From Octopus vulgaris (taxonomy: Eukaryota), in NCBI GenBank assembly GCA_951406725.2, contig OX597830.1:40424001-40488000 (forward strand): DNA of 64,000 nt, given 5' to 3'. The notes below the pieces were generated by a model that was not told the DNA's origin, did no database searches, and was given only the letters and a program-made list of their open reading frames with translations. The translations under genes and the position numbers were made by a program. Positions within the stretch are counted from its first letter, which is position 1. Every line of letters starts with the position of its first letter. Shown here piece after piece: positions 421 through 56,437 of the stretch.

Positions 421-1460
421 GTACCCAAGATACAAGGAGGTGTATATAGTGAAGGGGTCCGAGGATTGGAGGGGGCAAATGGAAGGGTGGGCGAGTGGAT
501 GGCTGAATGGATGGGTGGGTGAGTGGATGGGGAGTGGATGGTTGGGCATGTGAATGGGTGAGGATGGGTGAGCAAGTGGATGGGTGGGTGAGTGGCAGGG
601 TGGGCGAGTGGATGGGTGGGTGAGAGGATGGGTGAGCAAGTGCACAAGATTGCAAAAGGAGAGTGAGAGATGGTGGGAGGGGGCAAGAATGTAATGACTG
701 GGCACAGGTACAGAGAGAAAGAGAGAGAGGGGGGTATCAAGAGGATACACTGAAGGGAAAAAATTCAACAGGGACGCATAGAGTACAAATTGGTAGGTAG
801 GTGGGCACATGATGGAGAACGGAGAGGATTACAGAGGTGGTGAGCATGGGCGTGGGGGGAGGAGGGTGTCAGGATGCTGGGTCAATGGGGAAGGGAGGGG
901 AGAGCACGGGCATAGCGGACACGCCTTCATAACGGCTTCTAGGCAAGTCTATAAATAAAGTAGTTAAATCACAAATTGAGAAAATAGTTGCATCACCATT
1001 ATAATTATCTCCACGCTTTTGTGAAAAGACATAAAACTTTGTCTGAGCAATAAAGCTTGACAAAGATCATCCATTGTTGGATATTTACATTATTCTAAAC
1101 AATGTTGCTTAAGGGTTGCATCACAAATACCAAACCCTCTAATTATTTTCTTGTGAAGCCATAGTAATTATACAAGTAGATTTAATAGGCAATTTCATGT
1201 TTACTGCAACAGAGGTGTGAGTAACATTTTCTGTACTTTCTGAATCAATTAAAGTGTAACATCTTTATTGTTCATTGTATTTGTAAACAACTGGCTTCAG
1301 GCTAACGATATGAAACAGCCGAGGGTTGTGAAACTTGCACTCAATGACATTGTTGTAATATTATTATTTAAGGCGGCTTACTCGGTAAACCTCTCCATTT
1401 GTGTCTGTTTGTACCTTTGTATTCGTGTCCCTGTATGTTCTGTGTAGGCCCATGTGGCCA

Positions 1461-1875
1461 GCTATATTATTAGCATTATCCTGCCTTTGAGAATTTAAAA
1501 TCACTTCTTTAACTTTCTAAGACATCTCAATGCTTCTAAAGCAAACTTCATTTGTTTGTTTACGTTCATCATAATTTGAATTCAATGTATGATAGCATCT
1601 CATAAAGCGAGATTTCTATATATCTTAAATTTATGGAAGAATTTGTGGTGTGGGCAGTTTAGCTTAATGGTTCAGAGCACCACGACACGTAATCACAGAG
1701 GTGTGAGTTCGAGTCTCATAGCCAGCCGCTATGGGGTAGCTTATCCTGTTCAGGCTATATTATTAGCATTATCCTGTATTTGAGAATTTAAAATCACTTC
1801 TTTAACTTTATAAGACATCTCAACACTTCTAAAGCAAACTTCGTTTGTTTGTTTATGTTCATCGCAATTTGAATT
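1461..1875. repeat. ~120 bp direct repeat pair (1461-1582, 1754-1875) flanking a tRNA-like segment
   Basis: Both copies read gctatattattagcattatcctg...aatttaaaatcacttctttaac...aatttgaatt. Confidence 0.85.
1652..1727 (+). pseudogene. tRNA-derived sequence (pseudo-tRNA/SINE head, CGT-like anticodon loop)
   Basis: A-box TAGCTTAATGG, B-box GAGTTCGAGTCTC, T-arm gtgag/ctcat. Acceptor and anticodon stems are degenerate. Confidence 0.55.
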
Positions 1876-1886
1876 TATTAATATTT

Positions 1887-2100
1887 AAGGTGGTGAGCTG
1901 GTAGAACTGTTAGCAAGCTGGGCAAAATGCTTAACAGTATGTTGTCTATCCTTACAGTCTGAGTTCAAATTTTGCCAAGGCTGCTTTTGCTTTCTATCTT
2001 TTTGGGATCAATGAAATACCAGTTACTCACTAGGGTTGATGTAATCAACTAGATCCCTCCCTTAAAGTTTCAGGCCTTCTGCCTATTGTAGAAAGGATTA
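1887..2100 (+). mobile_element. SINE family B (~210 bp, ATT-repeat tail)
   Basis: aaggtggtgagctgg...ctgagttcaaat...gtagaaaggattattatt. About 20 copies in the window. Confidence 0.8.
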
Positions 2101-2290
2101 TTATTATTATCATTGTTATTCCTTCGTAACACAGTGTAGGTAAAAATGCATCAGAGTCTTTAATTATTGTTATTATTCTTTCCTACTCTAGGTACAAGAC
2201 CCGAAATTTTGGGAGAGGGGGCCAGTCAAGCAGATCAACCCCAGTACTTCAAAAAAAAAAAATGAGTACCAGTTAAATATTAGGGTCAAT

Positions 2291-2546
2291 AATATAGTTC
2301 TATATTTAAGAGATGAGGAAGTATATACATTATTTACATTTGACAGATATTTGTCCTCATCTTGTTTGTTGTTAACACAACGTTTCGGCTGATATACCCT
2401 CCAGCCTTCATCATGTGTCTTGGGGAAATTTCAAACCTGGGTTCTCATTCCTAAGGTATTTTTCGATGTTATTATTATTATCATTATTATTATTATTATA
2501 ATTATATTATTATTATTATTAATATTATTATTATTATTATTATTAC

Positions 2547-2610
<64 letters not shown>

Positions 2611-2751
2611 GGTCACTGCTTGGAATCGAACTCGGAATCTTGGGGTTAGTAGCCTGTGCTCTTAACCACTACGCCAAATGGCCGAAACGTTGCGTTTACA
2701 ACAAACAAGATGAGGAAAAATATCCATCAAATGTAAATAATGTAAATAATG
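2291..2751 (-). mobile_element. Composite retroposon: tRNA-derived head + (AAT)n + Penelope-like hammerhead tail, with inverted tail fragment at its 5' end
   Basis: tRNA head 2611-2682(-), (TTA)n 2469-2610, tail 2295-2468, inverted tail copy 2681-2751. Imperfect 13-bp TSD tattagggtcaat (2278-2290)/tactaggctcaat (2752-2764) inside a family B SINE. Confidence 0.75.
2374..2419 (-). ncRNA. Minimal type I hammerhead ribozyme motif, C3 mutated (probably inactive core)
   Basis: gacac ATGATGA a ggctg-gagggtatat-cagcc GAAAC GTT gtgtt. Confidence 0.65.
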
Positions 2752-2835
2752 TACTAGGCTCAATGTAATCAACTAACACCTCCCTCAAAATTTCAGGCCT
2801 TATACCTATAGTAGAAAGAATTACTGTTATTATTA

Positions 2836-3090
2836 AAGCTATTACATGCTATAATAGTCATGTTGTGTTGCGATTTGGTCACAAGTTTACTCAAATCTCA
2901 AAAATTTTTCTTAGGATTCTTGTAGAATGTAGGGTTGTGTTTTCCTGCAGGTCAACAATGCAAGACTCAATTCTAATATCCTTCAGCCTTTCAGGTAGCA
3001 GCCTGGGTGTTGTGCCAAGTTACTCAACTACCACAGAAGTAATTATCATCATGGTTTTTCACAATCTCCTCATCTCTCTGACTAGGCATT
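2836..3090 (-). mobile_element. R4/Dong-clade non-LTR retrotransposon 3' fragment
   Basis: Minus strand translates LGTTPRLLPERLKDIRIESCIVDLQENTTLHSTRILRKIFEI*, a typical RLE C-terminus. Ends at an AAT-rich run. Confidence 0.6.
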
Positions 3091-3304
3091 GATATTTTTC
3101 AACTTTCCCAATTTATCTTTTTTTTTTTTTTCGGTATTCTGGTATCTGCTCTATTATCATACGCTATTGCAAAGTCTTTGGCCTTACACTTCTTTCTGTT
3201 CTCTACAATCATATCTGGTCTTTTTCCTTCCAACAGTACAGTATTTGAAACGTTACACACTTATACACACGACTAATTTCATATCTCACAGTAATGACAA
3301 CAAG

Positions 3305-3468
3305 CAGTGGTGTAGCTGGGGAGTACGTGGCCCAGGGCAGCCCTTGAGTTTTCAACCCTCATCCCTGTTCCCTATAAAGGCTTATATAGCAAGCACAAAA
3401 TTGCCATCTGTATAAAAACATTGCATGGAGCAGAGTGCTCCTTCACGCTTCCCCCTGCTAAGCCACTG
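3305..3468. mobile_element. Short MITE with hAT-like TIRs
   Basis: Termini CAGTGGTGTAGC ... GCTAAGCCACTG. No clear TSD. Confidence 0.5.
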
Positions 3469-4278
3469 ATATTCAAAGGGAGTTTTAAAAGAATAAAATT
3501 AAATCCAACAGGAATACTTTTACTCTCTGTACATCTGACAAAAACATTAATTCCTTACGAAACACAAAGAGAAACTTTTGTCAGTGAAAGTCACATTTGG
3601 ATTTTGGTCTTGTGAAAGTCATATGTTATCTGTGAAGAATTTTGGTCTGTGTTGGTCAAATGTAGATTTTTGTTTTGTATAACTCAAATGTTGACCCACA
3701 TCTGTATGTAGAATATTGTTTTGTTCATTTTCAGAAAGAAAATTTAGATTATTCTTTACATGTTACTTTCATGGATGAAAATCAAAGGTAGATTTTGATT
3801 GTGAAAGTTACATGTAGTACATGTAATATTCTTTTTTTTTTTTGGAAGAGAAAGTCACATGTGGTGTTTAGTCTGTAAAATGTTGAGCAGTTTAAGCCAG
3901 AAGACAAAATGGAAAGTAAATTCATAGCTTTAATGATGATAATTTTTGCTTACGTATAAGGTTTGGAGCCAAGCATTACAGCAATTGAAGAAGCTCATTA
4001 GTGAGGTTTATAATTAGGAAAAAGAAAAAGGATAATTATAGTGGGGTGGGGAGTAATTTAAAGAACCTAATGGAAACAATGCAATAGAATTCATTAAGAA
4101 TATACTTTGTCAACATAGTATTTCTGTTTTCACTTCAAACGGAAAATTTTTATATGTATGTATGTAAATGTGTGTAAATGTGTAAGAGTGTGTGCATATA
4201 TATGTGCGTGTGTGTGTGTGTGTGTGCATCTATATATGCATGTATATATATATATGTATGTGTAAGGTTATGTATGTA

Positions 4279-8120: not shown

Positions 8121-8630
8121 CATACATACATACATATACATACATAGACACATACAGGCTTGTATGCATGTATGCATGTACATAAACATGCCAATACATC
8201 TTATAAATAAATGCATTGTGTGTGTAATATATAGCACTTAAATGAATGACAGCATATTTCCATGTGAAGTCTATCAGAGAGCTTGATAAAGTTATAATAA
8301 TTTCAAACTACTACACAAAATCCAAACACAGTTAATTAAAAGATTTATCTTTTTGATTTTAAGGTTAAATTAACAGGATTGATCACTTTTGCAATTAAAA
8401 CACTACAACCACTGAGACATTGTGTCAAAGTCAGGACATTCCAACACAGGGACAATTTGTGATTTCTTAACTCCAAAAGGATGAAAGGCAAAGTTGACCA
8501 CGGTGGAATTTGAACTCACAACATAAAGACAGACGAAATACCGCTAAGCATTTTTGCCCGGCATGCTAACAATTCTGCCAGCTTGCCAACTTAGAACTGA
8601 AAAATAATGAAAAGAAAGGAATGAACTTAC

Positions 8631-8688
8631 CATGAAGTTGTTTTGAACCCAAACATTTTGTCAGCAAGGGCTGTAATCAAGTGTTGCC
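8631..8688 (-). CDS. AARSD1: AARSD1 next coding exon
   Basis: 58 bp, acceptor ctctgcattcAG, donor TG|GTAAG. The phase-1 join with the previous exon gives G-QHLITALADKMFGFKTTS-W (vertebrate AARSD1: GQHLITAVADHLFKLKTTSW). Not in the ORF track. Confidence 0.92.
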
Positions 8689-8797
8689 CTGAATGCAGAG
8701 AGGGAGAAAAATTTTAAAGGATTGATTGAAGTGACCAACTTTAATTGAATAGACAGGATATCAATACACACACACACATCAATATATACACCACATA

Positions 8798-17085: not shown

Positions 17086-18954
17086 CATGACCAGTAAATT
17101 CCACTCAGAAAATTGCACTATAAGTAAAATTCACTGCAGCATATTTAACTAAGGTAAATTCAACTACAGTAAACGGTCTATAGAAAACTAATTACACATT
17201 TCTCAACTAATTAGTCATTAGCTAAAGTATAAGTTTATGCCATTGTTACTCAATTTTTAATTGAATTTCACTGTACTGCTAATTTTTTTCTGTTCAGTTT
17301 AACTTTGAACTTTGAAACCCTCAACCATGGCAACATTTATAATATCAGAGAAGAACAAAGGTAAGTTTTGTGACAAAGAGAATCATATATATGTAAAGTA
17401 TATTGGCATCGTAAACATTTTTACAAAGGTTGCCAGGCTAGACTACGTACAACTTTCAACTCCAGTATACCAGAAGTTATTTTTTCAACAGGCTTCCATA
17501 ATCACTCAGCAAGCAGTGCATACATTAATGCCCGAAAGGCAGTTAATTCAATGAAAAGTGAAGTAGTGAGAACAGGCACAGTATCTTCATGGGAAGTAAT
17601 AGCTGCTGCCGTACAAAATCTCGATGAGGAAGCACAATTATTGTTGCAAAGTATTCCTGGATTTTCTCATAACAGACGTAACTGGAGGCAGCATGCTTTA
17701 GGAATCCCAGCATTTCTAACTTGATGTTCAGGGTTTGAAATTCCTGATGCAGTTAAGTACTTAGAAAATGGGTCCTTGTTTTTGGTCTTTGACAGTGGCA
17801 TTGGTGCCTCGGACAGAATTTTTGTTTTTTCCTCAGAAAAAGGACTGGATGATCTAGAAAGCTCTGAAAATTGGGCCTGTGATGGGACTTTTAAGGTGTC
17901 TTCTAGTTTGTGGTGTCAGCTTTTCAGGCTACGTATCATCATTGGAGGGTCAAGTGTGCCCAGGTTAATTGCCTTACTTCTTGACAAATAAGAATCCTCA
18001 TATCATCGTGTTCTGTCTGCTGTGTGGGATTTAAGGGCAAATTGTTGACCTGTGACCTATTTCATGGACTTTGAAAAAGCTCTCCATTATTCATTTGTTT
18101 CTGTATTTCCGCATATAGAAGTAGTTGGGTGTGTTTTTCATCTCAGACAGTATATTTGGTGGAAAATATGTGCACTTGGTGAGAGTAGGAGATACAACAT
18201 GGATGAAAGTTTTCAGCTTAAAATTAAGTGTTTTTGCACTCTAGCATTTTTACCAATTGAAGGCGTTGTCAATGGAGTTAAAGATTTGTCTGACGATGAA
18301 AGCATCCCTTCTGAGTTTATCACTTATTTTGAGAATTCATACATTGAGACTGTAAAGGGACGTGGTCTTCGTTTATGAAGAGAAACCCCACAATTTCTTA
18401 TCCAACTCTGGAATATGAATGACTGCATTTTAAATGACTTGCCAAGAGCAAATAATTTGGTAGAAGGGTTCCACAACACTTTGCAGTCATCAATAACATC
18501 CACACATCCAAATTTTTGGAAACTTTGCAATACTCTTCAGACTAAAGTAGGCTTAAGCCAGATGAAAATTGCACACATTCAACATGGGGGTTGAAAACAA
18601 AAAAAAAAAAAAAAAAAAAAATGAAATGATTGATGCATGATTAAGAAGCTAGTTGGAAATTATCAGACTGAAAAATTTCTAAGAAATATTGCACACAATT
18701 TGTCAGAAAAGAATCTTCTTCAAATATAATAACTTTTTTTCATAACTTTATTTTTATGTACTCACCATCATTTTTATGCAAATATGTGAATAAAATGTGA
18801 GCTAAAATGTATTCATATTCTTTATCCATTTTTATGTACTTGCCATCATTTTTATCTTAATGTGTGAATAAAATGTGATCTAAAATGTATTTATATTACC
18901 TATAATGAAATTTATTGTCAGGGTATTTACTGTAGTGGAATTTACCTAGAACCC
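17086..18954 (+). mobile_element. Mutator-like (MULE) DNA transposon inserted in a (TA)n tract
   Basis: Inverted termini built of gtaaattccactacag-like subrepeats. (TA)n on both flanks. Encloses a MULE transposase pseudogene. Confidence 0.8.
17327..18730 (+). pseudogene. MULE transposase pseudogene
   Basis: WACDGTFK, YFMDFEKAL, GCVFHLRQ (CxxH), LPRANNLVEGFHN, HPNFWK. Several in-frame stops and frameshifts. Confidence 0.88.
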
Positions 18955-24844: not shown

Positions 24845-25993
24845 AACCCTACTCTGTATGGAATTACATGGTCAGTTCCATCATGAAACCAACAAATTAA
24901 AAGACTAGGAAGCATCATGAAGCTGGCTCAACAAGGGTGACCTAAAAAAGAATACTGAAAGCCTAATCATCGCTGCCCAGGACCAGGCATTGAATACCAA
25001 CTCAGTGAAAAATAATATATATAACACAAGTGCATCGGACCTCTGCAGAATGTGTGGGAAGAAGGTTGAAAGTGTGACTCACATTGCTAGTGCTTGTGAA
25101 AGTCTTGCGCAGAAAGAATACAAGCGTAGACACAACAAGGTAGCCCAAAACCTCCACTGGCTACTATGCCATAAGTATGGATATGAGGTTACAGGTGCTT
25201 GGTACCAACATACACCGGAAAAGGTAATGTACAAAATAAGGAAGGCAAAAATCCTCTGGGATTTTGATTTCCATGCAGACAAGGTGTCAGAGCATTGAAG
25301 GCTGGATATAGTAACCTTTAGGAGAGACAAACAAGAGTGCCTAATAATTGACATGGCAGTGCCAGGAGATCAACATATCATCATGAAAGAAAGAGAAAAG
25401 GTTGATAAATATGGAGACCTGAGAATTGAGATCGCTAAGATGTGGCAACTATGAGAGTCAAACATAAAGGCTATCCCTATTGTCATTGGAGCATTGAGTT
25501 CAATACCACCCAATCTGAAAAAACATCTGAAAACCTTAGAAATACCCTACAATCTAGGCAAGAGGCCTGAAAATATTTTGGGGGAAGGGGCCAGTCGATT
25601 AGATTGACCACAGTACGCAACTGGTACTTAATTTATCGACCCCGAAAGGATGAAAGGCAAAGTCAACCTCGACAGAATTTGAATTCAAAATGTAAAGACA
25701 GACGAAATACCGCTCAGCATTTCTCCCAGTGTGCTAGTGTTTCTGCCAGCTCAACACTTTAATAAGAAGAAATATTCTTTTCTACTCTAGGCACAGGGCC
25801 CAAAATTTTGGAGGAGAGGGCCAGTCGATTAGAATGACACCAGTACACAACAGGTACTTAAGTCGGCATTACTTGGAACTGCACACATATTTCGTAAAGT
25901 ACTGTCTGTCTGAGGTCCTTGTTGTGGCTTGACAGACAGTACAAACAATATTTTCAATCAACAACCTCACAACATTGTATACTGTGTGATGTC

Positions 25994-29446: not shown

Positions 29447-29722
29447 CATACATACATAATTGAAAAATTTGGAGTCAACAAGAAGGGGTACGGTTGGACA
29501 TTTATTTTTTAATCCCTACAATTGTTTCCATGCTACATAGTTCTCCAGGTGTGCAGGTACTTGATTATGCAACTGTTTCCTTGTATTGCCAAACTGTATT
29601 GCCAAAGGCGGTCCTACCCCATATTAAAATAAATTTCAGTTCTATATTAAAGAGATGAGGAATTATGTACTTATTTACATTATTTACATCTGACGGATAT
29701 TTATCTCATCTTGTTTGTTGTT

Positions 29723-29767
29723 AACACAACGTTTCGGCTGATATACCCACCAGCCTTCATCAGGTGC
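29723..29767 (-). ncRNA. Minimal type I hammerhead ribozyme motif (intact core)
   Basis: gcac CTGATGA a ggctg-gtgggtatat-cagcc GAAAC GTT gtgt(t). Palindromic ACGU stem III. Confidence 0.75.
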
Positions 29768-29897
29768 AATGGGGAAATTTCGAATCTGGGTTCTCATTCC
29801 TAATAATAATAATGATAATGATAATAATAATAACAACAACAACAACAGCATAAAAAAATACCTTAGGAATGAGAACCCAGGTTCAAAATTTCCCCAA

Positions 29898-29943
29898 GAC
29901 ACCTGATGAAGGCTGGAGGGTATATCAGCTGAAACGTTGTGTT
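29898..29943 (+). ncRNA. Minimal type I hammerhead ribozyme motif (intact core)
   Basis: gacac CTGATGA a ggctg-gagggtatat-cagct GAAAC GTT gtgtt. Confidence 0.75.
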
Positions 29944-30617
29944 AACAACGAAACAAGATGAGGACAAATATCCATCGAATGTAAATAATGTAAAATAAAT
30001 TTGTTTGAAATTTTAAGGCGTTTCCATTATTTTGTCCAACCCCTGTATATATATGATAGTCATAACTGAAATGTGCTGCATCATGTCATTATTTAATCAG
30101 GGCTGACTAGAAGGTAAACAGCATCAACAACAACAACAGTAACAACAGCAATGGAGGCACAATGGCCCAGTAGTTAGGACAGCGGACTCACAGTCATAAG
30201 AACGCGGTTTCGATTCCCAGACTAGGCATTGTGAGTGTTTATGAGCAAAAACACTTAAGCTCCACGAGGCTCCAGAGGGGCCCTATTGTACTCTTTTACC
30301 ACAATTTTCTCTCACTCTTTCTTCCTACTTCTGCCATAAAGCAGAGGAACCATGGTGTAACCCACTATGGTATGGTAAAACTTTCAGACCCTAGTCTAGA
30401 TTGCGAATCCTCTGTACTCCAGGATGGTTCAGCTCTCCACCCATTAAAAGCCACCGTTTACAGAATGAGGATGACAACGTAGCTTTCGCACCCATGCAAC
30501 CACCAGTCTATCACGTGTGGTGGGTGGATCTTCAAGTTTCCACACACATTCTTAGTAGCTTAGGATAGGCTTGAATGAGAGATTATTCTTTGTGGCTAAT
30601 GGCGTGAGTCCTGATTG

Positions 30618-33156: not shown

Positions 33157-33610
33157 TGTCTATATTAACAAAAGGAAAAAAATGGAAAAATGAAAATATC
33201 CTGAGCATCAGAAATGTTGATTTTAAACTACTTTATAAGTTTTGCCAAAGACATGGCAACTTCTCTAATGCTGGTGCCATGATAAAAGGCATCCAATATA
33301 TTTTGTAAAGTGGTTGGTTATTAGGAAAAATATCAGACTATAGAAACCATGCCAAAAATGGTTCCCAGGAGCTAAATGTAAACCTCTACTGCATCCAGGT
33401 ATGTAGAAACTCTGTATAAGACTGAATAAGAAGAGGAAGAGGGAGGAGGAGGAGGAGGAGGAGAAGGAAGAAGAAGAAGAAGAAGAAGAAGAAGAAGAAG
33501 AAGAAGAAGAAGAAGAAGAAGAAGAAGAATGATGATGAGGAGGAGGAGGAGTTGTTGTTGGTGGTGAAGGTGTGCATGTGTAGAAGATAAAGTATTTTAA
33601 CTTTTGTTAC

Positions 33611-33752
33611 CTGAGTGTTGTTGCATGTTGTCAAATCGTCGGTCCCAGTCAACAATGAGGTGCACATCTTTACCGACAGGTAACTCATTCTCGACGAAAT
33701 TCACGGCTTCCGCAGCTCGACGAGTGATGCGATGGACTGGAACAGCATCGAT
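33611..33752 (-). CDS. AARSD1: AARSD1 (AlaX alanyl-tRNA editing protein), internal coding exon
   Basis: 142 bp, acceptor atttccAG, donor G|GTAAC. Translates IDAVPVHRITRRAAEAVNFVENELPVGKDVHLIVDWDRRFDNMQQHS-G, matching the AARSD1 signature VDWERRFDHMQQHSG. Confidence 0.93.
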
Positions 33753-34015
33753 CTGGAAATAAACATCAACAACAGGTGAGAAGGGCAATGAAAGGTTTAG
33801 AAGGAACAAAAGAAGAAAACATATCTGTGTTGTGGTTTAGCCCCAGAGCAGCCAAGATCAAGCAAACGCTATGTTTGTACCTGGCCTATTTACTGGTGTT
33901 TATATTTCTAGCTAAATCACTACATGGCACCTTGGGCGAGTATTTTCTATTACAGCCCCCAGGCCAAAAAGTGTTTTGTGAATGGATTTGGTAGATGGAA
34001 ACTGAAAGAAGCTTG

Positions 34016-54186: not shown

Positions 54187-56437
54187 CTGAATCAACCATC
54201 CATGAGGTAATTGTCATCGGAGTATCAGAAGATGTGGTAGATCTACAGGCATTTACTGGCAACACATCTAAGGACCTAAGCTGTGTTCCTCTAAAAAGTG
54301 CTTTCTGCCTTGGCCGACCAGGATCCAACCCTGACTGATTAGGCTATTGTTTTCAAACTCTACTGAGGTGTGGGCATACCATCTAGCCGCTGATAGGGCT
54401 CGGTACGAAAACAGAATTACCTTTCGGACACGTCCTGGCCTACCGCCTGATGTACACCAAAAGCTAAGATCTGTAGCTTCCCTAAATCGCAATGCTGTGG
54501 CACAGGAAAGCTTTAGGCTACGCTATGATGGGCAAATATGGAAATTTGTCAAGTCTGGTGAGTCATGGATAAGGGATATCAGTTGGTCTGAGCATACTGC
54601 ACCCACAATAACTGGCAATACGAAAATCATGGGAAACTAAACAAGAACAATCAGTCATCTCCTGTATATCATCGTCATCTGAAATCCAGATAAACTGTTG
54701 TCCTTAAATGCCCATAGTTTATGCAATAAGGTACATATTTTTGACTCTTATGTCAAAAGTATCGACCCGGATTTCACAACAGTCATGGAAACATGGGCAC
54801 ATTCTGCACTCTGTGATGGGGTTTTCAGCATAGCCGGCTACAACCTGTTCTACAAAGACTGCATTAATCACCATGGTGAGGGTGTGATGGTCTATGTTCG
54901 TTCAAATCTATCAGCAATTTCTTGTAATGATTTGAACCAATCTCAACAGGAAGTATTTTTCTGCAATATACACATGACCATGTCAATTCTTTTACTTGGA
55001 GTTGTTTACTGCCTCACCAAATTATCATCAAGACACACACTTTTTGATATCCTCAGAGTTGCTGCCATGAAAACCGCCACTTATGTTTATATTGCAGGGA
55101 ACTTCAATTTCCCTGAGATTGACTGGGAGGCCTTCCGTTGGCCGCAAAGTGCTGAATTCAAATTGGTCCCAAGTTGTTACCTTCTCCACAAGGGGTAACA
55201 ATACTTTGGATCTGCTATTTACTGCTTCTCCTGAAACAATCATTAGTGTCACTACCGAAGAACCTTTAGGTGACTCTGATCATTCCATGGTCATGGCCGA
55301 CTTGCCGATGATTGGTTGTAACAAAAACCACAACCATCTTCAAACTGCCCGCTTCAACTGGAATAAAGCAGACTGGAACTCTTATTGTACCAAGCTGCGA
55401 CACCCAAACTGGCTCGAATTTTATGCCTCTGGAGATGTGAACACTATACTTCAAGACATTCTGAATTCAATATGGATGGCATGTGCAGCATCGGTGCCAC
55501 ACAAGCACAAAAACCACCCAATAGTGTAATTTGGGAGACTGCAGCAGTCCAACTTGCTAGGAAAGGACGCCATAATGCTGAACAGGAATGCAAAATGCAC
55601 AAATCAGAGATCAACAGGAAAAAGTGCAATAGATCATCCAACTGTCTCAAGCAGGTGACAAAAAAGGCAGTGCTTGAATTCGAACAGTGCATAGCAACCA
55701 ACCCTGACAGCAAAGTGTTCTGGAAGTATGTACATTCAAAGCAGAGACCTCACTTTCCAGTTGGCCCCCTTTGCAATCCCCACACAGGCCAGATTACTGA
55801 CAATCCCAAAGAATGTGCAGAAATCATTGCTGGATGCTATGCAGGCATCTTTACTGTCGAAGATCAAAATGTTCCGTCTCCATCACCTCTGACACTGGAT
55901 GCTATAACTACTATGAAATTTACACCAGCAATGCTACAATGCCACCTTAAAAATAAATGTAGCTATGCCTCTCCTGGTCTCGATGGTGTTACATACCTAC
56001 TTCTCAAACGCAGTGGGTACTTTCTTCTAAACTAACTCTCACTATAAAATTATTAACCATCTTACTAACAATAACTTTGAGCACCTTTTCAAACTCCACC
56101 TGTCTAACACCCATGGACATGTTTACAAAGTCAGAAAACAGCACAGCTCCCATGACTTTCAGAAACATTTTTTCACGCTAAGAGTTGCTGAAGCATGGAA
56201 CAAACTGCCAGCATCAGTTGTTGGTTGTCGGAGCACTGCATCCTTCAAAACTTCCATGCTTCCTGAGATTCGCCAACACTACACCTGATTTTCTCCCCTC
56301 CATACACACACAAGCATTTTTCTGACTCATACACTGTTCACTTCCCAGACATTTGTACATTACTGCATTGGCTTTATACGCACATTTGACAAGTTGTGGT
56401 GCACCTGAGCACTGTATACAATAATTTCATTATTATT
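54187..56437 (+). mobile_element. CR1-like LINE: ORF1 end, APE endonuclease, RT deleted, intact 3' end with (ATT)n
   Basis: LNAHSL..K, VMETW, GVMVYVR, IAGNFNFP, NTLDLLFT, LGDSDH, KVFWKYV, SPGLDG. Jumps at ~56042 to YKII...THGH.YK...FFTLRVAEAWNKLP...FK. Confidence 0.88.

What the first reader, a model, noticed from the sequence alone, without database searches (positions are those of the whole stretch)
29637..29990. Palindromic double-hammerhead insertion with a perfect 12-bp TSD
Seen: two intact hammerhead cores on opposite strands (29723-29767 minus, 29898-29943 plus) in an inverted repeat around (AAT/AAC)n. It is flanked by TAAAATAAATTT on both sides, within a Tc1-like terminus. The TSD indicates the inverted structure integrated as one unit, and transcription from either strand would include one ribozyme. 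Inference: in AARSD1 pre-mRNA the ~130 bp hairpin would probably mask the ribozyme and be an ADAR substrate.
Basis: partly seen in the sequence, partly recalled or inferred. Interest (0 to 1): 0.7.

Follow-up and report, generated by a model that had tools for sequence, protein, structure and literature searches.

The report
Head-to-head Penelope retrotransposon stub in octopus
This 354-base palindrome is two cut-short ends of an abundant octopus Penelope-type jumping gene, inserted head-to-head as one unit into an intron; each end carries a minimal hammerhead ribozyme motif that is predicted to be shut off by the hairpin, so it is an ordinary example of a known insertion type, not a new RNA device.

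Summary
Observation confirmed. Arms, two hammerhead motifs and a perfect 12-bp duplication are present; 29 of 29 paralogous Tc1 termini carry no insert and no second copy of the 12-mer. The arms are the terminal repeat (pLTR) of a Penelope/Poseidon-type retrotransposon (2059 exact core matches genome-wide; a near-full-length RT plus GIY-YIG copy has the same ends and a 12-bp duplication). The layout is the family norm: 56 of 92 position-ordered loci are head-to-head pairs, all 56 with a ~30-nt tail on one arm only, 40 of 56 with a duplication (control 11 of 1400). Inverted pLTR, one-sided tail and duplication are published Penelope features. The ribozymes are minimal type I motifs that need a same-strand partner, which an inverted pair cannot supply; folding gives hammerhead-helix probability 0.0 on both strands. 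The site is in an AARSD1 intron; editing at this locus is untested. Less ordinary, at family level: a tRNA-Arg-like head lost from this copy, where most arms begin (possible Pol III, SINE-like RNA). The scan noted this family before on other DNA.

The parts
29600..29624 (+). Tc1-like transposon remnant, last transposase codons (left of insert)
   Evidence: Continuous with the right flank in paralogues L052-L080; DDE_3 in L060, L062
29625..29636 (+). Target-site duplication, left copy (12 bp; starts at the Tc1 stop codon)
   Evidence: single in paralogues
29637..29803 (-). Tailed arm: inverted, 5'-truncated Penelope pLTR; tail about 29637-29666
   Evidence: Matches family unit positions 18-177; in L111 the same tail runs on into the ORF
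29714..29767 (-). Minimal type I hammerhead, sense in AARSD1 pre-mRNA; predicted cut between 29718 and 29717
   Evidence: Core by inspection; helix I 4 bp, helix II 8 bp; cleavage untested
29804..29859 (+). (AAT)n/(AAC)n linker of the right arm; 5' truncation and inversion point (tRNA-like head lost)
   Evidence: Same linker lies between head and pLTR body in other copies
29860..29990 (+). Tail-less arm: Penelope pLTR ending in the short A/T repeat before the tail
   Evidence: Matches family unit positions 9-146; 44 matches at 94-100% among 40 scored of 1152 candidates
29898..29943 (+). Minimal type I hammerhead (G10.1-U11.1 wobble); predicted cut after 29938
   Evidence: cleavage untested
29991..30002 (+). 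Target-site duplication, right copy (first 2-4 nt also match the element's continuation)
30003..30045 (+). Tc1-like right terminus, followed by TA
   Evidence: 40 matches among 40 scored of 208 candidates
33588..33755 (-). AARSD1 exon upstream of the host intron (next exon 8618-8701)

Best explanation
This is a dead, doubly 5'-truncated insertion of an octopus Penelope-type retrotransposon: two copies of its terminal repeat joined head-to-head, one with the ~30-nt tail and one without, inside a 12-bp target duplication, likely made by two target-primed reverse transcription events at a staggered double-strand cut. Shown: family identity, single-unit insertion, one-tail layout, duplication length. 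Inferred: the element's GIY-YIG/RT protein, probably as a dimer, nicks both strands about 12 bp apart; each 3' end primes cDNA on an element RNA, one at the tail start site and one at the internal site; both cDNAs stop early and are joined at their ends. The hammerheads are passengers of the pLTR. In any transcript through the site the antisense arm is made first, so the ribozyme would be born into a 135-bp duplex and stay inactive. Its likely only effect on AARSD1 is an intronic hairpin that ADAR could edit.
For: L111 carries pLTR-RT-GIY-YIG-head-linker-pLTR plus an inverted tail-less pLTR and a perfect 12-bp duplication; RT is RVT_1 E 6e-8, the C-terminus hits GIY-YIG clusters at 0.97. 2059 exact core matches, 0 in the reversed control. 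In 92 position-ordered loci: 56 complete inverted pairs, 56 of 56 one tailed plus one tail-less arm (p 1e-17 against independent ends), 40 of 56 with a duplication, mode 12 bp, control 11 of 1400. Among 45 simple pairs the tail-less arm reaches further 5' in 20, the tailed arm in 18, tie in 7, so neither arm is simply a nested copy of the other; here too the tail-less arm is the longer one. The Anolis Penelope protein cuts and extends both strands, starts at two sites that bound the tail and is predicted to be a dimer (PMC11167929). Hammerhead helices have probability 0.0 in the full hairpin on both strands.
Against: Arms of one insertion share a subfamily allele more than chance (27 of 33 against 53% expected, p 0.0005), which fits one arm being copied from the other as well as two RNAs from one source. 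PMC11167929 saw no difference in start site between strands in vitro, so the strict one-tail rule is not explained by that work. 16 of 56 pairs had no duplication above threshold. No phylogeny was run, so the clade rests on domain order. No orthologous empty site was seen.
Confidence: 0.82

Rival explanations
1. Same Penelope insertion, but the inversion arises by self-priming or fold-back (one arm copied from the other) and the endonuclease then trims one tail during integration.
For: Proposed in PMC3846280 (self-priming, palindromic junctions) and PMC8557442 (tail from EN-mediated resolution). Allele sharing between arms. Some head-head junctions are near-palindromic (L170, L174, L195).
Against: The tail-less arm is longer at its 5' end in 20 of 45 pairs, so fold-back needs an extra trimming step. 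PMC11167929 maps the tail to two reverse-transcription start sites. The two arms here differ at two neighbouring variant sites (unit positions 128, 131), though both are CpG-type and inconclusive.
Confidence: 0.27
2. A functional ribozyme or editing switch selected to regulate AARSD1.
For: It lies in an AARSD1 intron with one core in sense. Octopus has the strongest hyper-editing signal of the species compared and lizard Penelope is heavily edited (PMC5625713). Family-wide RNA reads show RNA-biased T>C and A>G sites.
Against: One of probably over a thousand such loci. Both arms carry ordinary decay (8 and 4 differences from the family majority), including helix I and the 10.1-11.1 pair. Minimal hammerheads did not cleave as monomers and only weakly as dimers (PMC4209133). 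Even isolated arms form helix I with probability under 0.1.
Confidence: 0.03
3. A non-autonomous DNA transposon (MITE-like) or a post-insertion fold-back duplication.
For: Terminal inverted repeat plus duplication.
Against: Ends are asymmetric in 56 of 56 pairs, the centre is variably truncated (218-1594 bp), duplication length varies 9-18 bp, and the arms are the ORF start of an RT-encoding element.
Confidence: 0.02

Closest known systems
EN+ Penelope insertions with inverted pLTR, tail and TSD (Adineta vaga Pen2a, PMC3846280; overview in PMC8557442; passages read)
   Same: Head-to-head pLTRs, ~30-nt tail on one end, pLTR includes the ORF start, short duplication (8-10 bp there), empty site with one copy.
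   Different: Here nearly the whole element is lost; duplication mode 12 bp; the one-tail layout is strict (56 of 56) rather than 'optional' or 'often'.
PAc Poseidon of Anolis (PMC11167929; abstract, main text and part of methods read)
   Same: Hammerhead at the ORF start in the pLTR, tail bounded by two end positions, AT-rich targets, RT then GIY-YIG.
   Different: This family has a tRNA-like head and (AAT)n linker before the pLTR body; no activity was tested here.
Minimal type I hammerheads of metazoan PLEs (PMC4209133; abstract, results, discussion read)
   Same: Extra nucleotide between 9 and 10.1, 4-5 bp helix I, palindromic loop-less helix III; that paper notes pairs 100-700 bp apart on opposite strands in Schistosoma.
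   Different: Plus copy has G-U at 10.1-11.1; U at position 17.
tRNA-derived SINEs and TRIMp3 elements (PMC10886601; passages read)
   Same: Family head resembles tRNA-Arg, and most arms start at it.
   Different: The head sits inside the autonomous Penelope unit and is absent from this copy; the partner is a PLE, not a LINE or LTR element.

Membership tests
EN+ Penelope-like element (Penelope/Poseidon type) | One ORF with RT followed by C-terminal GIY-YIG | tested here: met
   In family copy L111 (ORF broken by stops and frameshifts). Not in the 354-bp copy itself.
EN+ Penelope-like element (Penelope/Poseidon type) | pLTR that overlaps the ORF start and holds a hammerhead | tested here: met
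   In L111 the tail sequence reads on into the N-terminal frame; arms align with its pLTR.
EN+ Penelope-like element (Penelope/Poseidon type) | Inverted 5'-truncated pLTR, one-sided tail, short TSD | tested here: met
EN+ Penelope-like element (Penelope/Poseidon type) | No CX2-5CxxC linker between RT and EN; two cysteines inside GIY-YIG | tested here: met
   By eye in translations of L111 and L112 against the criteria in PMC8557442.
EN+ Penelope-like element (Penelope/Poseidon type) | RT phylogeny within the clade | not tested
   No named reference PLE proteins were fetched.
Minimal type I hammerhead | Conserved core, extra nt after A9, palindromic helix III, helices I and II | tested here: met
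   no Rfam hammerhead hit.
Minimal type I hammerhead | G10.1-C11.1 pair | tested here: inconclusive
   Met in the minus copy, G-U in the plus copy.
Minimal type I hammerhead | Self-cleavage (as dimer) | not testable with these tools
   Needs an in vitro assay.
Non-LTR retrozyme | Tandem same-strand hammerhead repeats yielding circular RNA | tested here: not met
   Arms are on opposite strands here; tandem arrays occur elsewhere (L006). Definition from search listing and abstract of PMC7229834 plus recall.
tRNA-derived SINE | tRNA-derived head with A and B boxes | tested here: inconclusive
   Absent from this copy. Family head scores z 7.8 and 7.2 against two genomic tRNA-Arg genes, at most 4.9 against 23 other distinct tRNA sequences; ARAGORN 0 genes in 19 loci; no Rfam tRNA hit.
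tRNA-derived SINE | Pol III transcript starting at the head | not testable with these tools
   Indirect only: 55 of 65 arms that reach head +8 stop between -20 and +8.
MITE / DNA transposon | Symmetric fixed termini and fixed TSD length | tested here: not met

The most novel reading that the evidence does not exclude
This Penelope family has captured a tRNA-Arg-derived Pol III promoter just before its pLTR, so one autonomous element pours out a short SINE-like RNA of its own tip. Its protein dimer always loads two such RNAs, possibly paired through the hammerheads' palindromic helix III, and starts one at the tail site and the other at the internal site, giving the strict one-tail, 12-bp, head-to-head scar. 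The stub studied here is a product of that machine, and the thousand-plus hairpins feed the octopus editome.
Probability: 0.3. Interest if true: 0.65.

Novelty: new member of a known kind. Interest (0 to 1): 0.3.

Why it matters
The locus itself is ordinary. The family is useful: PMC8557442 calls the origin of Penelope's tandem and inverted insertions undefined, and here a very large set of young copies gives sharp rules (one tail per insertion in 56 of 56, duplication mode 12 bp, either arm may be longer) that an in vitro system like PAc can test. If the tRNA-like head is a working Pol III promoter, a Penelope element would be making its own SINE-like RNA, which I did not find in the held library. 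Each such insertion is also a ready-made dsRNA in an animal known for heavy A-to-I editing.

Tried and rejected
Rfam: no family at gathering score in the window, no hammerhead at E up to 10 around the insert, no tRNA hit on the head. Orthologous empty site: DNA contigs of four runs and one more did not cover the unique flank beyond 30066 and no piece bridged the locus; no conclusion. Expression and editing of this locus: no indexed RNA holder was listed. Raw reads X21-X23 (about 6% of each run) were unstranded, almost all from paralogues (60 of 5048 at 99% or more in X21) and had no depth at 30064-30110, so they say nothing about this copy. No pile-up of read ends at the predicted cut was listed, which such libraries would not be expected to show. 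Intermolecular dimer folding gave helix II swaps or other pairings, not the active form; energy models do not capture hammerhead cores. Mean arm identity within pairs (92.3%) is not clearly above that across pairs (91.9%, p 0.12). T4 depletion as a Pol III signature is weak: L111 0 against 3.8 expected (p 0.026; codon shuffle p 0.018), but L112 and L113 not significant; the first T4 search had a scripting bug and was redone. Pfam and PDB did not recognise the EN fragment. The repeat at 29447-29587 did not link to the Tc1 terminus in its paralogues. Sequence look-up in earlier findings returned nothing.

Full report
Observation. The insert 29637-29990 folds as one long hairpin (z -26, 0 of 100 shuffles as stable). 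The 12-mer at 29625-29636 recurs exactly at 29991-30002. A search with the right flank returned 40 matches, most starting exactly at 29991. All 29 non-self loci fetched lack the insert and have no second copy of the 12-mer within 388 nt upstream; 27 have it with at most one mismatch. Two of them encode DDE_3 transposase ending at the first three bases of the 12-mer. So the duplication and the Tc1 host are real, shown by paralogous rather than orthologous empty sites. The AARSD1 gene (P0001, named for Octopus sinensis, 96% over 47 aa) is on the minus strand with exons at window 33588-33755 and 8618-8701, so the insert is intronic.

Hammerheads. Each arm reads helix I - CUGAUGA - one extra A - helix II - GAAA - C G U - U17 - helix I, with a loop-less palindromic helix III. 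This matches the minimal type I motif of metazoan Penelope-like elements in PMC4209133 (abstract, results and discussion read). That paper found no cleavage by monomers, low cleavage by dimers, and mentions pairs 100-700 bp apart on opposite strands. The plus copy (29898-29943) has G-U at 10.1-11.1. The minus copy spans 29714-29767 and has a 4-bp helix I. Rfam has no hit.

Family. The arm is a high-copy repeat: 2059 exact matches to a 38-nt core pattern, 0 for the reversed control; a second inverted copy lies in this window at 2290-2750. Walking upstream gave the order GIY-YIG end - 80-nt tRNA-like head - (AAT)n - pLTR body. L111 is nearly full length. It has an inverted tail-less pLTR, then the tail running into an N-terminal frame, RT (RVT_1, E 6e-8), an endonuclease region whose nearest clusters carry GIY-YIG (score 0.97, family on 15-27% of members), head, linker and tailed pLTR, all inside a perfect 12-bp duplication. 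No CX2-5CxxC linker is visible, which fits Penelope/Poseidon by the criteria of PMC8557442 (passages read). No tree was built.

The layout is the family norm. I took the first 94 of 100 listed core matches on contig C1, which make 92 loci; the sample favours well-preserved copies. Of these, 56 are complete head-to-head pairs, 7 partial, 29 single. All 56 pairs have one tailed and one tail-less arm. 40 of 56 have a duplication scoring 9 or more (lengths 9-18, mode 12), against 11 of 1400 mismatched flank pairs. An earlier, partly overlapping set gave 39 of 41 and 29 of 41. PMC3846280 (passages read) describes the same design in Adineta: inverted pLTR, 31-bp tail on one end, 8-10 bp duplication, empty site. 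PMC8557442 says the tail is often at one end only. The finding is therefore a known kind of insertion.

Mechanism. PMC11167929 (abstract, main text, part of methods read) shows that the Anolis protein cuts and extends both strands of AT-rich DNA, starts at two internal RNA sites that bound the tail, is predicted to be a dimer, and does not need hammerhead cleavage. I infer two priming events at a cut staggered by about 12 bp, one from each start site, with the truncated cDNAs joined in the middle. Supporting this, among 45 simple pairs (11 complex ones set aside) the tail-less arm reaches further 5' in 20, the tailed arm in 18, and 7 tie; neither is a nested copy. Against it, arms share a subfamily allele more than chance (27 of 33, p 0.0005), which also fits fold-back copying with later trimming, and the in vitro work saw no strand bias in start site. 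The rival stays open.

Effect on the host. In a head-to-head pair the antisense arm is transcribed first on either strand, and no same-strand partner for the dimeric ribozyme exists. With 100-nt flanks the hammerhead helices have probability 0.0 on both strands; the pre-mRNA-sense hairpin has 135 pairs, longest unbroken helix 19. Editing is plausible: PMC5625713 (passages read) reports the strongest hyper-editing signal in octopus and frog and heavy editing of lizard Penelope. In RNA reads X21-X23, T>C at 29889 is about 20% (391 of 1868 in X21) against 0.08% in DNA contigs X16, and A>G at 29945 and 29699 are also RNA-biased. These reads come from paralogues and other individuals, so they hint at family-wide editing only; a few highly expressed variant copies could give the same picture.

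The head (not in this copy). It aligns best with two genomic tRNA-Arg genes (z 7.8, 7.2) but is not called as a tRNA. Of 95 head-bearing arms, 47 begin within 8 nt of its first base; of 65 that reach +8, 55 stop by -20 and 10 run on into the ORF. That suggests a discrete short RNA, perhaps from Pol III, or a strong RT stop. T4 depletion is weak support. Searches for Penelope with tRNA-derived or Pol III terms found nothing relevant (twin priming), but Repbase, most subscription papers and supplements were not seen. PMC10886601 (passages) and PMC11703226 (passages, irrelevant) were also checked.

Earlier scan notes, read after these analyses, reach the same reading at other octopus loci; one supplied the lead to PMC3846280. 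They are not independent support.

Verdict. Real, correctly seen, but an ordinary truncated Penelope insertion with likely silent ribozymes. Interest 0.3, carried by the family-level rules and the possible Pol III head.

Noticed in passing
window 2290-2750: Second inverted insertion of the same family: tailed arm with long (AAT)n and tRNA-like head on minus, short tail-less arm on plus, with a degenerate ~13-bp duplication seen by eye.
   Followed up: partly
L111 (G000:C1:7950000-7959900, element about 1112-3946): Near-full-length Penelope copy with inverted ends and perfect 12-bp duplication; ORF broken; no run of four T on the sense strand over 2634 nt (3.8 expected).
   Followed up: yes
L006 535-1839: Six tandem head-less pLTR units of about 190 bp followed by a head and a short inverted arm; a same-strand array where dimeric hammerheads could form.
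   Followed up: no
window 29447-29587: A different abundant repeat (2355 candidates) abuts the Tc1 terminus at about 29600; its paralogues continue into other sequence.
   Followed up: partly
G000:C17:40325945-40745639: AARSD1 exons are spread over about 420 kb; the intron after the first matched exon is about 288 kb.
   Followed up: no
window 24921-25369, 54683-56288, 17667-18594: Stop-free frames that look by eye like decayed retroelement (RT/endonuclease) and DNA-transposase fragments; labels recalled, not tested.
   Followed up: no
L136 1444-1940: Two tailed arms in the opposite (tail-to-tail) arrangement, probably two separate insertions.
   Followed up: no
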